From: Escherichia phage RB49
Direction: 5' to 3' (one strand)
Length of the DNA stretch: 64,000 bases
Sequence record: NC_005066.1
In this document: piece by piece, positions 13,367-17,648 of the stretch
Position numbering within the stretch: the first letter of the stretch is position 1
How the letters are laid out: each line of letters opens with the position of its first letter
Notes under the pieces: generated by a model
What the model saw: the letters and a program-made list of their open reading frames with translations, nothing else
Database searches by the model: none
Told to the model about the DNA's origin: nothing
Made by a program: the position numbers and the translations under genes

Positions 13367-14143
13367 TTACACGCGAGCACCGTAGATCGTGCCTACTTTA
13401 TCCCAGCGTGGAGCATTACCAGTAACGGCTTTACCAGCAGCACCACCGTTATATTCTGTACCGTTCCCCTGAGTATTACATCTTCCTCCAGCAGCACCAA
13501 CGTTACCGCCCGCACCGCCTGTATATGCACTAAGAGACCCCTCACCAACAGATCCTTTACCCGGAGCGGAAATGGAGCCAGCGGTTGCACCAGAACCCAT
13601 ATTAGAGGAAGACCCACCAGCACCGAATGGGCGACCACCACCGCCACCAAATACTAGTCGACCCCTGTTACCGCCACCACCACCGCCACCACCGCCAGCG
13701 ATAGCACCGTTATTTGTAATTCGTAGACGTGTACCGATAGCGTTATTGATTGCGTTTCCACCAGCAGCGCCAGCCGCGTTACTACCACCGTTACCCCCAC
13801 GTCCGTAGACAGTCACACCGGAGTTAATGATCAATGTTACATATTCGTTTGTTAACGAGCTAGGGAAGTCAAGACAAGGAACGCCAGTAGATTGGGAAAC
13901 AATATTACCCGTGATAGTAATTACTACCGGAGTAGATCCTTGTGCTTTCATCCAGTTAATAAGAGTGTCTTTATTGTAAGAGTTACTAGCACCAATGCTA
14001 TAATGAATCTCTTTAGAGCGTCCGACCATTGCCGACATATACGCCGGACGACCTAAGCGAACAGCTTGCATTGCGGCGCTCATCCACCGTTGACCAGTCT
14101 CGGACACAGCCGATGATCCGACCCAACCTGCTTTAATTGCCAT
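13367..14143 (-). CDS. glycine-rich low-complexity protein (258 aa)
   Basis: About 100 aa non-repetitive N-terminus, then long Gly/Ala/Asn-rich region with a G9 run; strong RBS GAGGAAAC; flanked by terminators. Confidence 0.6.
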   Translation of the reverse strand: MAIKAGWVGSSAVSETGQRWMSAAMQAVRLGRPAYMSAMVGRSKEIHYSIGASNSYNKDTLINWMKAQGSTPVVITITGNIVSQSTGVPCLDFPSSLTNEYVTLIINSGVTVYGRGGNGGSNAAGAAGGNAINNAIGTRLRITNNGAIAGGGGGGGGGNRGRLVFGGGGGRPFGAGGSSSNMGSGATAGSISAPGKGSVGEGSLSAYTGGAGGNVGAAGGRCNTQGNGTEYNGGAAGKAVTGNAPRWDKVGTIYGARV

Positions 14144-15474: not shown

Positions 15475-15509
15475 TCTTCACGGTCTCCATAATTGTTTTG
15501 TAAGCCAGT

Positions 15510-15674
15510 TTAAGATGATTCACCGAAAAACTTTGCGGTGTTACCCTTCGGATCGCGGAGCATGGTTTCTACGATCTCATCGGCAGTAACAATTTCTCCT
15601 TTCTTTGCTGCATGTTCTACCATATACTTCAAAGTTTCTTCGGAAGCAAGTGCTGCGGCTACTGGATTAATCAT
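15510..15674 (-). CDS. small hypothetical protein (54 aa), below track size cutoff
   Basis: Hand-translated MINPVAAALASEETLKYMVEHAAKKGEIVTADEIVETMLRDPKGNTAKFFGESS; promoter cassette and GGAGAATCAAA RBS directly upstream. Confidence 0.4.
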   Translation of the reverse strand: MINPVAAALASEETLKYMVEHAAKKGEIVTADEIVETMLRDPKGNTAKFFGESS

Positions 15675-15732
15675 TTTGATTCTCCTTTGTTGTCGATGTG
15701 TGCATTATGCTATACTCTATTCCGGTTGTCAA
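15675..15732 (-). promoter_or_regulatory. early promoter cassette (TTGACA-17-CATAAT)
   Basis: rc of 15704-15732. Confidence 0.5.
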
Positions 15733-15739
15733 CACCTAA

Positions 15740-15772
15740 AAACGAAAAAGCCACCCTTTCGGATGGCTTTTT
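15740..15772. terminator. hairpin terminator with A-run upstream and T-run downstream (potentially bidirectional)
   Basis: aaaaacgaaaaa-gccaccctttcggatggc-tttttg. Confidence 0.55.
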
Positions 15773-16002
15773 GATTATATTTTATTCACGTCCATTTGTA
15801 TAGTAGTGTTTGAATCGACCTTTGCTAAACTAGTTAAACATAGTAACCAATTCACCATCCCTTTCCAATGATAAACCTTCCTCGTCTTAGACGGGTCTTC
15901 CGATTCGGCAGGAATTGAACACGCGAAAGTATGAGGAAGCCAAATAGTTGTGTTAATGCTAGTATTCTTTTACTTCTGGTATGCATCCCACAGTGACTAA
16001 CA

Positions 16003-16401
16003 TTAAGCCAGTCGAGTGAGTTTATAAATTGTTTTAAAGCATAGAGCTTTGATATCGTCTAAAACGCTCTGTAACGAGCTATCAACATCATTATAAATCT
16101 CACTAGCCATTTGCGTTAACTCTTGCAAATAGGCAATTTCGCTAATCTCCTTGCGGACGACCAACGTTGGCTGATAACGACCAGTGATCCCAATATTGGT
16201 TTCAGTGAAATTATCAACCAATTCTTGCATTTCAAGATAGAACTCTTCTAGAGCCTTATGTTTTGCATAAGATCCAGGACCAGTTACCCCAAAATGCGCA
16301 GAATGCATATAAGTAACACTCATCAGACATTCACCGATAAAGCGGTCAACCTTATTAGCTTTCCCATCTTCGGACGTCTTTCGAAAATCACTGAATTTCA
16401 T
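16003..16401 (-). CDS. ferritin-like / Dps-like protein (about 132 aa)
   Basis: Start at ATG 16399-16401 with GGAGAA RBS; segment SAHFGVTGPGSYAKHKALEEFY..ELVD matches the Dps HWNxxGxxF..H..E..D metal-site pattern. Confidence 0.45.
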   Translation of the reverse strand: MKFSDFRKTSEDGKANKVDRFIGECLMSVTYMHSAHFGVTGPGSYAKHKALEEFYLEMQELVDNFTETNIGITGRYQPTLVVRKEISEIAYLQELTQMASEIYNDVDSSLQSVLDDIKALCFKTIYKLTRLA

Positions 16402-16690
16402 GTTCTCGATTCTCCATATTATGCAACACAACAAATTGGTTTGCGGCATATTCCCCCATAATAAAACACTGCTTAGAATCCATACATTTACTACGAGCAT
16501 ACATCTTCATAATATGGGCATGAAATTTCTGGCTGGTTTCAATGGAAGGAGATATTTTGTTTACATATACTATCATTGCGCCGTCGAAATAATCAGTAAA
16601 GTCACCAGTTGGATCATATTGGTCAGCACTGACGCTTCCGACCGCAGTAAAGCATATTGCCGCTGTTAGAGTTTTACGAATAAATGACAT
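16388..16690 (-). CDS. small secreted protein with N-terminal signal peptide (100 aa)
   Basis: MSFIRKTLTAAICFTAVGSVSA signal-peptide-like; late-type TATAAATA (rc of 16724-16731) upstream. Confidence 0.45.
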   Translation of the reverse strand: MSFIRKTLTAAICFTAVGSVSADQYDPTGDFTDYFDGAMIVYVNKISPSIETSQKFHAHIMKMYARSKCMDSKQCFIMGEYAANQFVVLHNMENREHEIQ

Positions 16691-16723
16691 AAGTCATTCC
16701 CCCAGATTTAAAATATTCAGTTA

Positions 16724-16731
16724 TATTTATA
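16724..16731 (-). promoter_or_regulatory. T4-type late promoter core TATAAATA (minus strand)
   Basis: Plus tatttata = rc TATAAATA, about 34 nt upstream of the ATG at 16690; sits in the loop of palindrome ccccagatt..aatctgggg. Confidence 0.4.
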
Positions 16732-16758
16732 ATCTGGGGCTTTATTTATGATTAACTC

Positions 16759-17355
16759 TTAGTTGGTAGTACCATCAATAAAATGTTTACGACACACAGA
16801 GACATATTTATCCTCTGCACCAACTTCGATTTGAGCACCATCGCGAATAACATTACCCTCTTTATCTACACGAAGGACCATTGTTGCTTTCTTACCACAA
16901 TGACAAATACCCTTCATTTCGACCAGTTTATCAGCAAATGCCATCAATGCCGCAGATCCTTCAAATAGATTGCCCTGAAAGTCAGTGCGGAGACCATAAC
17001 ACAGGACAGGGATATTTGCATCATCAACAAGCGCACACAAGCCTAAAACATGCTCTTTAGTCATAAATTGGGCTTCATCTACAAATACAGCATCAGGACG
17101 CCATCGATCCGGTCTACGCTTACCTAACGATTCACGATAAACCAAGTCGAAAAGATCATCCGATTCAGTGAAGGTGATCGCTGGAGCACTTAGACCAATT
17201 CGGGAAACAACTTCACTTTCTGAATCTCGATTATCAATCGCTGGCTTAAGAATTAATACTCGCATATCACGTTCGGTATAGTTATAAGCACTTTGTAACA
17301 GGGAAGTTGATTTGCCAGCGTTCATAGATGCATAGTAGAAATATAGTTGCGCCAT
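16759..17355 (-). CDS. tk: thymidine kinase
   Basis: 198 aa; P-loop MNAGKST; thymidine-kinase-like Cys pairs near the C-terminus. Confidence 0.9.
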   Translation of the reverse strand: MAQLYFYYASMNAGKSTSLLQSAYNYTERDMRVLILKPAIDNRDSESEVVSRIGLSAPAITFTESDDLFDLVYRESLGKRRPDRWRPDAVFVDEAQFMTKEHVLGLCALVDDANIPVLCYGLRTDFQGNLFEGSAALMAFADKLVEMKGICHCGKKATMVLRVDKEGNVIRDGAQIEVGAEDKYVSVCRKHFIDGTTN

Positions 17356-17648
17356 TAATTAATCTCCAAAAATCCAGCAAGACCTAAACCGATATAAGTC
17401 CAGATACAAAGGAAAAAGAAGCAAACACCCATAGCAAAGATAAATCCGCGTAGTGTCTTTGGATAACCTACCCAATATTCCCGACCATCTTCTAACCGGA
17501 TCAGCTTATTTCCTTGAGAGTCCATATCAATTACAACATGTTTATTTCTGGATTGTAACAGATATTGCTTGACAATCTCAATACCCGCCATAATAACAAT
17601 AACGAAATTGAAAGTCCACATAACAAGGTTAATGATAGTCTCAAGCAT
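17355..17648 (-). CDS. hypothetical membrane protein (97 aa)
   Basis: Two hydrophobic helices. Confidence 0.45.
   Translation of the reverse strand: MLETIINLVMWTFNFVIVIMAGIEIVKQYLLQSRNKHVVIDMDSQGNKLIRLEDGREYWVGYPKTLRGFIFAMGVCFFFLCIWTYIGLGLAGFLEIN

What the first reader, a model, noticed from the sequence alone, without database searches (positions are those of the whole stretch)
16003..16740. Dps/ferritin-like protein and a secreted partner behind a late-type promoter embedded in a hairpin
The 16003-16401 product carries a Dps-like metal-site pattern (SAHFGVTGPGSY..H..EEFY..ELVD). Immediately upstream is a small signal-peptide protein (16388-16690) whose start is preceded by an exact minus-strand TATAAATA late promoter core (16724-16731) sitting in the loop of a 9-bp palindrome (ccccagatt..aatctgggg) just after tk. 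A late-expressed ferritin-like protein in the early region would be unusual and could relate to iron or oxidative-stress handling, or to DNA protection late in infection.
Basis: inference. Interest (0 to 1): 0.5.

Follow-up and report, generated by a model that had tools for sequence, protein, structure and literature searches.

The report
T4-type rI / rI.-1 lysis-inhibition operon
This is the well-known lysis-timing operon of T4-like phages (antiholin RI plus its partner gene rI.-1) in an RB49-like phage; the partner really is a shrunken Dps-type iron protein, and the hairpin around the late promoter most likely keeps the operon untranslated until late infection, a trick already known from other T4 genes.

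Summary
The biological reading needs correcting.

- **Source.** The window is a Krischvirus (RB49-like) genome, 97-98% identical to sequenced phages.
- **The "secreted partner" (16690-16388, minus strand).** It is the RI antiholin (Pfam PF24205, E 3e-23).
- **The "Dps-like" gene (16401-16003).** It is the ortholog of T4 rI.-1 (DUF5856, PHROG 858). It overlaps rI, as it does in T2, Pseudotevenvirus, Slopekvirus-like and Aeromonas phages.
- **The Dps claim holds.**
  - H36, H48, D63 and E67 align with Listeria/Bacillus Dps H31, H43, D58 and E62.
  - Those four residues are 99-100% conserved in 103 diverse relatives.
  - The protein is a miniaturised Dps with no BC helix, and it fails the Dps/ferritin HMM cut-offs.
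- **The late promoter.** TATAAATA sits where T4's documented late promoter lies, between tk and the rI operon. It was already predicted for RB49 in 2006.
- **The hairpin.** Its 3' arm pairs the rI Shine-Dalgarno sequence in tk read-through RNA. A transcript starting at the late promoter lacks the 5' arm. This is the architecture known for T4 e, soc, 49 and I-TevI, but here it is inferred, not shown.

Overall this is a new member of known kinds. The only open question of interest is what a ligand-conserved mini-Dps does in the lysis-inhibition operon.

The parts
16759..17355 (-). tk (thymidine kinase). This is the upstream early gene whose read-through RNA would carry the full hairpin.
   Evidence: Pfam PF00265 E 1e-51 and PHROG 592. 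Annotated as tk in relatives.
16700..16739 (-). Outer hairpin. The 5' arm CCCCAGAUU is at 16739-16731 and the 3' arm AAUCUGGGG at 16708-16700. An inner 6-bp stem pairs 16728-16723 with 16716-16711.
   Evidence: Fold -24.9 kcal/mol, z -5.2. Perfect 9-bp inverted repeat. Arms invariant in 9 Krischvirus sequences while loop and flanks vary. Annotated as an ARNold 'terminator' in phage G2494.
16724..16731 (-). T4-type late promoter core TATAAATA (-13 to -6). The predicted start site is about 16718.
   Evidence: Exact match. T2 has TATAAATA at the same place after tk. T4's late promoter between tk and rI.1 is documented (PMC2962797). The consensus position is given in PMC1524935. The RB49 site Pl:48756 in that paper's supplement corresponds by spacing.
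16698..16703 (-). Shine-Dalgarno sequence GGGGGA of rI. Bases 16703-16700 lie in the 3' arm of the outer hairpin.
   Evidence: Unpaired probability is 0.00-0.10 in read-through RNA. It is 0.1-0.6 (window) and 0.6-0.96 (JK32) in the predicted late RNA.
16682..16699 (-). Second small hairpin, GAAUGAC-UUAU-GUCAUUU, presenting the A and U of the rI start codon in its loop. It is present in both early and late RNA.
   Evidence: The same geometry with different stem sequences occurs in T2 and K65.
16388..16690 (-). rI, the RI antiholin (lysis-inhibition regulator), with an N-terminal signal or SAR-like segment and a C-x5-C pair.
   Evidence: Pfam PF24205 81.7 bits against a cut-off of 27. PHROG 1246 'lysis inhibition'. 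Aligns to T4 RI structures 6psk and 6psh. 21% identical to T2 RI.
16003..16401 (-). rI.-1 ortholog (DUF5856), a cytoplasmic mini-Dps. Its start overlaps the end of rI by 14 nt. Putative metal ligands are H36, H48, D63 and E67.
15745..15772 (-). Intrinsic terminator that probably ends the rI operon transcript.
   Evidence: 12-bp stem followed by a T-run.
20347..20375 (-). Nearest upstream sigma-70-type early promoter (TTGACA-17-TAATAT), the likely source of read-through RNA across tk into rI.
   Evidence: It corresponds to RB49 Pe:52389 in the PMC1524935 supplement. No strong minus-strand terminator lies between it and 16740.

Best explanation
The locus is the Krischvirus (RB49-type) version of the T4 lysis-inhibition operon, and it lacks rI.1.

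**Gene 1** encodes the periplasmic antiholin RI. In T4, RI binds holin T and delays lysis after superinfection.

**Gene 2** is translationally overlapped with gene 1 and encodes RI.-1, a 132-aa cytoplasmic miniaturised Dps. It is a four-helix ferritin-like bundle. It keeps the Dps-type inter-subunit ferroxidase ligands: two His at the helix A/B junction, and Asp and Glu on helix B. It lacks the BC helix and has short C and D helices.
- Inferred mechanism: it forms at least Dps-like two-fold dimers that bind Fe2+ and oxidise it.
- Inferred role: this limits Fenton damage, or buffers iron, during the long late or lysis-inhibited phase.

**Expression logic (inferred).**
- Early RNA from a sigma-70 promoter about 3.6 kb upstream reads through tk.
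- That RNA folds into a -25 kcal/mol hairpin whose 3' arm pairs the rI Shine-Dalgarno sequence, so rI and the coupled rI.-1 are not translated.
- Late RNA starts about 6 nt after TATAAATA, which spans the last base of the 5' arm and the start of the loop. It therefore lacks the 5' arm and is translated.

**Shown:** gene identities, synteny, fold, ligand conservation, hairpin stability and its conservation.
**Inferred:** metal chemistry, oligomeric state, promoter use and translational gating.
For: **Identity**
- 97-98% DNA identity to Krischvirus genomes annotated tk / rI / 'starvation-inducible regulator'.
- Pfam Antiholin and DUF5856 hits above their cut-offs, and PHROG 1246 and 858.
- The T2/T4 gene order tk > rI.1 > rI > rI.-1 has the same overlap of rI with rI.-1.
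- The overlapping or abutting rI > rI.-1 pair also occurs in UPEC03, Roth27, K65 and Aeromonas ZHF.

**Dps nature**
- phmmer against PDB hits Dps at E 5e-5 with a gap-free alignment over the ligand region.
- A 103-sequence family profile hits Dps and NAP at E 3.5e-5.
- The AF2 model has pLDDT 87.8.
- H36, D63 and E67 map to L. innocua His31, Asp58 and Glu62. PMC8389677 describes these as the inter-subunit ferroxidase centre.
- Conservation in 103 representatives: H36 103/103, H48 102/103, D63 102/103, E67 103/103. Mean column identity is only 27%.

**Promoter**
- Golec 2010 states that the T4 rI operon has a late promoter between tk and rI.1 and an early promoter 3.3 kb upstream.
- T2, K65, UPEC03 and Roth27 all carry TATAAATA before the operon.
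- Nolan 2006 predicted this site in RB49.

**Gating**
- The SD unpaired probability is about 0 in read-through RNA. It is 0.1-0.6 (window) and 0.6-0.96 (JK32) in the late RNA.
- The stem arms are invariant while the loop varies.
- The same architecture is documented for T4 e, soc, 49 and I-TevI (PMC3014915).
- UPEC03 and Roth27 place a canonical terminator immediately before TATAAATA. That is another way to insulate rI from early RNA.
- In T4 omics, rI.1 is 'early RNA, late protein', like e. RI is a late protein.
Against: - No covariation supports the hairpin. All nine sequences have identical arms, and those arms also contain the SD and abut the promoter.
- In the predicted late RNA the SD is only partly free in the window sequence (0.1-0.6).
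- A second hairpin over the start codon persists in both RNAs.
- T2 and K65 show no comparable early-versus-late difference, so gating is not a general feature of the operon.
- The protein fails the Dps and ferritin HMM thresholds. NCBIfam Dps scores 16 bits against a cut-off of 114. Pfam Ferritin gives no hit at E<=1. hhalign against the single E. coli Dps sequence is weak, E 0.076.
- In 97 of 103 relatives the loop between the two His is 3 residues shorter than in Dps.
- The BC helix that lies on the Dps two-fold axis is missing from the model.
- The only experiments on T4 RI.-1 point to a modest effect on lysis-inhibition length together with RIII, not to iron.
- In T4, RI.-1 protein is classed 'middle', not late.
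Confidence: 0.7

Rival explanations
1. The hairpin is mainly a 3'-end element of the tk transcript. It would act as a weak terminator or as a barrier to 3' exonucleases. Its overlap with the late promoter and the SD would be incidental compaction of a short intergenic region.
For: - Annotators of phages G2494 and G37-3 list it as an ARNold terminator, -11.16.
- Related genera UPEC03 and Roth27 have a true terminator at the equivalent position, just upstream of TATAAATA.
- The hairpin sits 19 nt after the tk stop codon.
Against: - No U-tract follows the stem; the next bases are GAAUGACUUAUG. The terminator scan did not report it.
- Nolan 2006 lists no terminator at the matching RB49 coordinates.
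- The 22-nt loop is atypical for an intrinsic terminator.
- This role and RBS occlusion are not mutually exclusive.
Confidence: 0.2
2. RI.-1 keeps the Dps fold but acts as a protein-protein accessory of lysis inhibition, modulating RIII or the RI:RIII balance as Golec et al. proposed. It would have no iron or ferroxidase chemistry.
For: - Overexpressing T4 rI.-1 slightly prolongs lysis inhibition.
- Together with rIII it strengthens the effect and relieves RIII toxicity.
- It has no effect in an rIII mutant.
- Tight, conserved coupling to rI holds across Straboviridae genera.
Against: - The four Dps metal ligands are 99-100% conserved across 103 representatives that average 27% column identity. 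That is hard to explain without a metal site.
- The family also occurs in Kuttervirus (Ackermannviridae) with no adjacent rI.
- It occurs in about 1900 metagenomic 50%-identity clusters, some fused into very large proteins. Its core function is therefore not specific to lysis inhibition.
- The two roles could coexist.
Confidence: 0.25
3. One reading: a secreted protein and a ferritin-like protein form a dedicated iron or oxidative-stress handling pair that is unusual for the early region.
For: Only the adjacency, the signal peptide and the Dps-like motif.
Against: - The secreted protein is a clear member of the T4 antiholin family.
- The pair is standard in T4-like phages.
- The operon is described in the T4 literature.
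Confidence: 0.03
4. The product is a 'starvation-inducible transcriptional regulator', as PHROG 858 and many GenBank records label it.
For: Database labels only.
Against: - There is no DNA-binding domain hit.
- The label looks like a garbled carry-over from 'DNA starvation/stationary phase protection protein Dps'.
- The protein is acidic, pI 5.4.
- Its N-terminal tail is variable and of low model confidence.
Confidence: 0.03

Closest known systems
T4 rI operon (rI.1 - rI - rI.-1), described by Paddison 1998 and Golec 2010
   Same: - Same position directly downstream of tk.
- Same order, rI then rI.-1, with overlapping stop and start codons.
- TATAAATA late promoter just after tk, plus a distant upstream early promoter.
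   Different: - There is no rI.1 gene.
- RI is only 21% identical and RI.-1 about 33% identical to T2/T4.
- The promoter is enclosed by a strong SD-pairing hairpin that T2 lacks.
[quoted passage not shown]
   Same: - H...H...D...E ferroxidase ligands in register. In this Krischvirus subfamily even the A-B loop length and the G-P motif match.
- A conserved aromatic residue follows the first His.
   Different: - 132 aa against 145-170 aa.
- No BC helix, and short C and D helices.
- Below the Dps/ferritin HMM cut-offs.
- Most family members have a loop 3 residues shorter.
- Oligomeric state, iron core and DNA binding are unknown.
- It is phage-encoded and coupled to an antiholin.
RBS-occluding hairpins with an internal late promoter at T4 genes e, soc, 49 and I-TevI
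   Same: - The SD is paired in RNA made from upstream promoters.
- The late promoter lies within the DNA that encodes the hairpin (last base of the 5' arm and start of the loop), so the late RNA lacks the 5' arm.
- It controls a lysis-related gene, as at e.
   Different: - Not described for rI.
- It appears confined to Krischvirus. Relatives use a terminator instead or show no clear structure.
- It is untested experimentally.

Membership tests
T4-like antiholin RI (Pfam PF24205 / PHROG 1246) | Profile match above the curated cut-off | tested here: met
   81.7 bits against a cut-off of 27, E 3.3e-23, covering residues 4-97. PHROG 1246 E 1.2e-25.
T4-like antiholin RI (Pfam PF24205 / PHROG 1246) | N-terminal export or membrane segment, followed by a periplasmic domain of about 75 aa with two conserved Cys | tested here: met
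   The sequence shows a hydrophobic stretch at residues 8-22 ending in VSA. CMDSKQC aligns with T4 CSSDFEC in 6psk.
T4-like antiholin RI (Pfam PF24205 / PHROG 1246) | Binds the periplasmic domain of holin T and imposes lysis inhibition | not testable with these tools
   Needs binding or genetic assays.
RI.-1 / DUF5856 (PF19174, PHROG 858) | Profile match above the cut-off, and position immediately downstream of rI | tested here: met
   75.4 bits against 34.6. PHROG 858 E 1.7e-43. Overlapping rI > rI.-1 arrangement as in T2.
Dps (mini-ferritin) | Ferritin-like four-helix bundle | tested here: met
   [not shown]
Dps (mini-ferritin) | Inter-subunit ferroxidase ligands His, His, Asp, Glu (L. innocua H31, H43, D58, E62) | tested here: met
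   H36, H48, D63 and E67 align without gaps. The role of the ligands is described in PMC8389677. Conserved in 102-103 of 103 relatives. The geometry across a dimer could not be modelled.
Dps (mini-ferritin) | Match to curated Dps/ferritin profiles (Pfam PF00210, NCBIfam NF006975) | tested here: not met
   No PF00210 hit at E<=1. NF006975 scores 16.2 bits against a cut-off of 114. Homology is detectable only at E about 1e-5 against individual Dps sequences.
Dps (mini-ferritin) | Short BC helix in the long B-C loop at the two-fold interface | tested here: not met
   Residues 74-87 are modelled as a 14-residue coil with no helix.
Dps (mini-ferritin) | Dodecameric hollow shell with an iron core; DNA binding or compaction | not testable with these tools
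   Only monomer prediction was possible. The protein is acidic, pI 5.4.
T4-type late promoter | TATAAATA at -13 to -6, upstream of a gene expressed late, used by gp55-RNA polymerase | tested here: inconclusive
   - Exact box 41 nt before the rI ATG.
- Same position as the documented T4 promoter.
- Predicted for RB49.
- The box is not enriched in the window and no transcript data are available.
Late-promoter-in-hairpin translational gate (T4 e / soc / 49 / I-TevI class) | SD and/or AUG sequestered in a helix in upstream-initiated RNA | tested here: met
   SD unpaired probability 0.00-0.10 in 161-nt and 301-nt read-through RNAs. Fold z -5.2.
Late-promoter-in-hairpin translational gate (T4 e / soc / 49 / I-TevI class) | The late transcript starts inside the structure and lacks its 5' strand | tested here: met
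   The predicted +1 at about 16718 lies in the loop, 13 nt downstream of the 5' arm. This is prediction only.
Late-promoter-in-hairpin translational gate (T4 e / soc / 49 / I-TevI class) | Read-through transcription from an early or middle promoter actually reaches the gene | tested here: inconclusive
   A sigma-70-like promoter lies at 20375-20347. Only two weak terminator-like sites follow it before 16740. No RNA data are available.
Late-promoter-in-hairpin translational gate (T4 e / soc / 49 / I-TevI class) | Structure supported by compensatory changes | tested here: inconclusive
   The arms are identical in all 9 sequences and variation is confined to the loop and flanks.

The most novel reading that the evidence does not exclude
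RI.-1/DUF5856 would be a phage-specific, miniaturised Dps ferroxidase that assembles through Dps-like two-fold interfaces, possibly into a small cage. T4-like phages would co-express it with the antiholin to manage iron and peroxide during prolonged late or lysis-inhibited infection. It could protect the large intracellular DNA pool, or supply or buffer iron for late assembly. That would give the 25-year-old orphan gene rI.-1 a biochemical function and link lysis inhibition to metal and redox homeostasis.
Probability: 0.3. Interest if true: 0.6.

Novelty: new member of a known kind. Interest (0 to 1): 0.3.

Why it matters
- The genes, their order and the late promoter are textbook T4 biology, so the locus itself is ordinary.
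[quoted passage not shown] The papers I could search do not mention that it is a ligand-conserved mini-Dps. Only garbled database labels hint at it. This gives a directly testable biochemical hypothesis for a gene present in more than 1400 sequenced phages.
- The promoter-in-hairpin arrangement adds rI of RB49-type phages to the short list of T4-family genes gated by RNA structure. Different genera also appear to insulate rI from early expression in different ways: a hairpin, a terminator, or neither.

Tried and rejected
- **Domain fusions.** Pfam scans of ten large proteins containing a DUF5856 domain found no informative partner domain.
- **More RI relatives.** The search for related loci in IMG/VR with the RI protein returned one near-identical locus, so it gave no diversity for covariation.
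- **Other genera.** I looked for the same enclosing hairpin elsewhere.
  - T2 and K65 show no meaningful early-versus-late difference.
  - UPEC03 and Roth27 have a terminator before the promoter.
  - Aeromonas ZHF has no exact TATAAATA.
- **Rfam.** A scan of 15500-17000 found nothing near any gathering score.
- **NCBIfam.** No hit for RI or for the 44-aa ORF.
- **Capsid targeting.** I considered that the N-terminus MKFSDF... and an I-G-E motif might be a T4 capsid-targeting and gp21 cleavage signal. I rejected this because the residue is not conserved in the family.
- **Papers not held.** Miller 2003 and Paddison 1998 could not be read.

Full report
**1. What the window is**

The 2-kb stretch around the finding is 97-98% identical to many Krischvirus (RB49/Phi1/JSE-like, Straboviridae) genomes. 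The spacing of the window's TATAAATA sites matches the RB49 late-promoter list of Nolan et al. 2006 with a constant offset of about 32 kb. All genes discussed here lie on the minus strand.

**2. Observation check**

- The two ORFs, the motif string, the TATAAATA (16731-16724) and the 9-bp inverted repeat (16739-16731 / 16708-16700, 22-nt loop) are all present.
- The octamer by itself is not enriched: 9 observed against 6.0 +/- 2.3 expected.
- About a dozen perfect 9-bp inverted repeats per 64 kb are expected by chance.
- The local fold is exceptional: -24.9 kcal/mol, z = -5.2, and none of 200 shuffles is as stable.
- An inner 6-bp stem and a second hairpin over the start codon complete the structure.

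**3. The 'secreted partner' is the RI antiholin**

- ORF 16690-16388 matches Pfam PF24205 (T4-like antiholin) at 81.7 bits against a cut-off of 27. It matches PHROG 1246 'lysis inhibition'.
- It aligns to the solved T4 RI domain (6psk, 6psh), including the C-x5-C pair.
- It is only 21% identical to T2 RI.

**4. The 'Dps-like' protein is the ortholog of T4 rI.-1**

- ORF 16401-16003 matches DUF5856 (PF19174, 75.4 bits against 34.6) and PHROG 858.
- tblastn finds it in 1421 phage records. These include T4 (gene mobD.7, also called rI.-1) and T2 at about 33% identity, always next to rI in Straboviridae.
- In T2 the transcription order is tk > rI.1 > rI > rI.-1, with an ATGA overlap between rI and rI.-1. 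Here the order is tk > rI > rI.-1, with a 14-nt overlap and no rI.1.
- The coupled pair recurs in Pseudotevenvirus UPEC03, Klebsiella phages Roth27 and K65, and Aeromonas phage ZHF.
- Kuttervirus Se-G carries the gene without rI.

**5. Is it really Dps-like? Yes, as a fold and ligand set, but it is not a canonical Dps**

Sequence evidence:
- phmmer against PDB hits only Dps-family proteins down to E 5e-5. The alignment is gap-free over residues 19-80.
- A profile built from 103 diverse relatives hits Dps and HP-NAP at E 3.5e-5.

Structure evidence:
- The AlphaFold2 model has pLDDT 87.8 and pTM 0.81. It has four long helices, 17-37, 44-73, 88-103 and 108-131.
- Foldseek's top hits are almost all Dps.

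Ligand evidence:
- By the alignment offset of 5, H36, H48, D63 and E67 correspond to H31, H43, D58 and E62 of Bacillus and Listeria Dps. His31, Asp58 and Glu62 are described as the inter-subunit ferroxidase centre of L. innocua Dps (PMC8389677).
- A whole-library profile search found 1907 clusters (50% identity) at E<=1e-3.
- In an alignment of 103 representatives averaging 27% column identity, H36 is 103/103, H48 102/103, D63 102/103 and E67 103/103. Y126 is 103/103, Y55 99/103 and H33 97/103.
- No E-x-x-H pairs are conserved in helices C or D. The site is therefore of the Dps (inter-subunit) type rather than the ferritin (intra-bundle) type. This implies at least a Dps-like two-fold dimer, which is an inference.

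Differences from Dps:
- The protein is 132 aa long.
- Residues 74-87 form a coil where Dps has the BC helix.
- The curated Dps and ferritin profiles are not met.
- 97 of 103 relatives have 8 residues, not 11, between the two His. The Krischvirus subfamily keeps the Dps length and the G-P motif.
- The protein is acidic (pI 5.4) and has no signal peptide.

The widespread label 'starvation-inducible transcriptional regulator' looks like a corruption of the Dps name. Nothing supports a regulatory role.

**6. What is known experimentally**

- Golec et al. 2010 (PMC2962797) state that rI.1, rI and rI.-1 form an operon. It is transcribed from a late promoter between tk and rI.1 and from an early promoter 3.3 kb upstream.
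- They found that overexpressed rI.-1 slightly prolongs lysis inhibition. It also reinforces the effect of RIII and relieves RIII toxicity.
- Abedon's 2019 review still calls the role 'as yet undefined'.
- Neither paper mentions Dps or ferritin. Full-text searches for DUF5856, for rI.-1 with Dps or ferritin, and for the PHROG label found no characterisation.
- In the T4 time-resolved omics supplement, the classes are:
  - RI.-1: protein detected, 'middle' for both RNA and protein.
  - RI: middle RNA, late protein.
  - rI.1: early RNA, late protein, the same class as lysozyme e.

**7. The promoter and the hairpin**

- T4 late promoters are TATAAATA at -13 to -6 (PMC1524935). This places +1 at about 16718, inside the loop.
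- T2, K65, UPEC03 and Roth27 also carry TATAAATA ahead of the operon. The RB49 site was predicted in 2006.
- The nearest upstream sigma-70-type promoter is at 20375-20347, which corresponds to RB49 Pe:52389. Only weak terminator-like sites follow it before tk, so read-through into rI is plausible.
- In read-through RNAs of 161 or 301 nt, the SD (UGGGGGAA, 16704-16697) has an unpaired probability of 0.00-0.10.
- In RNAs starting at 16716-16719 the outer helix cannot form. SD accessibility then rises to 0.1-0.6, and to 0.6-0.96 in phage JK32.
- This is the arrangement reviewed for T4 e, soc, 49 and I-TevI. There, upstream-initiated RNA sequesters the ribosome-binding site, and late RNA starts inside the structure (PMC3014915).
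- Across nine Krischvirus sequences the arms, the promoter box and the SD are invariant, while the loop and upstream flank vary. One of these, JK32, is 82% identical locally. This is consistent with selection on the structure, but there is no compensatory change, so it is not proof.
- UPEC03 and Roth27 instead have a canonical terminator ending 3-4 nt before TATAAATA. T2 and K65 show no clear gate. The enclosing hairpin is therefore a Krischvirus solution.
- Some annotators call the hairpin a terminator. It lacks a U-tract, and neither my scan nor Nolan's list reports it.
- The operon probably ends at the strong terminator at 15772-15745.

**8. Verdict**

It is wrong about the partner and about the arrangement being unusual.

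The locus is the RB49-type rI / rI.-1 operon. The late promoter was already predicted. The hairpin is a probable new instance of a known T4 translational gate.

The one point with real potential is that RI.-1/DUF5856 is a very widespread, ligand-conserved mini-Dps with unknown biochemistry.

Step by step, my confidence is roughly:
- Gene identities: 0.95.
- Dps-type metal site: about 0.6.
- Translational gating by the hairpin: about 0.55.
- An iron or peroxide protective role in late or lysis-inhibited infection: about 0.3.

Noticed in passing
window 16682-16699 (-); L001 (T2) ~2203-2218; L005 (K65) ~1518-1535: The rI start codon sits in the loop of a small 5-7 bp hairpin in the window, in T2 (AGGCC-UUUAU-GGCCU) and in K65 (GGCC-GUAU-GGCC). 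The stem sequences are unrelated but the geometry is the same. This could be a conserved element tuning RI translation.
   Followed up: partly
T4 omics supplement of PMC9697503 (T4 genes rI.1, rI, rI.-1, tk): rI.1 is classed 'early RNA, late protein', the same class as e, ipII and ipIII. rI is middle RNA, late protein. This hints at post-transcriptional delay in the T4 operon too, although I found no convincing gate in the T2 sequence.
   Followed up: partly
Proteins P0073 (1934 aa), P0144 (1439 aa), P0142, P0126, P0170, P0096; BFVD hits: The DUF5856 mini-Dps domain is embedded in very large metagenomic proteins with no other Pfam domain. Structural neighbours in BFVD include Dps-like domains fused to prohead proteases, which suggests that some phages may target ferritin-like domains into capsids.
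   Followed up: partly
L003 1430-1462 (UPEC03) and L004 1419-1450 (Roth27): A canonical intrinsic terminator is followed within 3-4 nt by TATAAATA upstream of rI. This is a different way from the Krischvirus hairpin to make the rI operon late-only.
   Followed up: yes
window 15773-16002 (-): A gap of about 230 nt lies between the rI.-1 stop codon and the operon terminator. It holds only a 44-aa basic ORF (15986-15852), annotated as hypothetical in relatives. There is no Rfam or NCBIfam hit.
   Followed up: partly
window 13367-14143 (-): A 258-aa glycine-rich ORF with runs of G is annotated 'tail fiber protein; host specificity' in phage GoldenSnicker. It lies on the early-gene strand, a few genes downstream of the rI operon.
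   Followed up: no
window 17355-17648 (-) and 17641-17883 (-): Directly upstream of tk are a 97-aa predicted membrane protein (PHROG 16027, no Pfam hit) and an 80-aa phage zinc-binding domain protein (PF23895). T2 has tk.1-tk.4 at this position, so the neighbourhood differs from T4.
   Followed up: no
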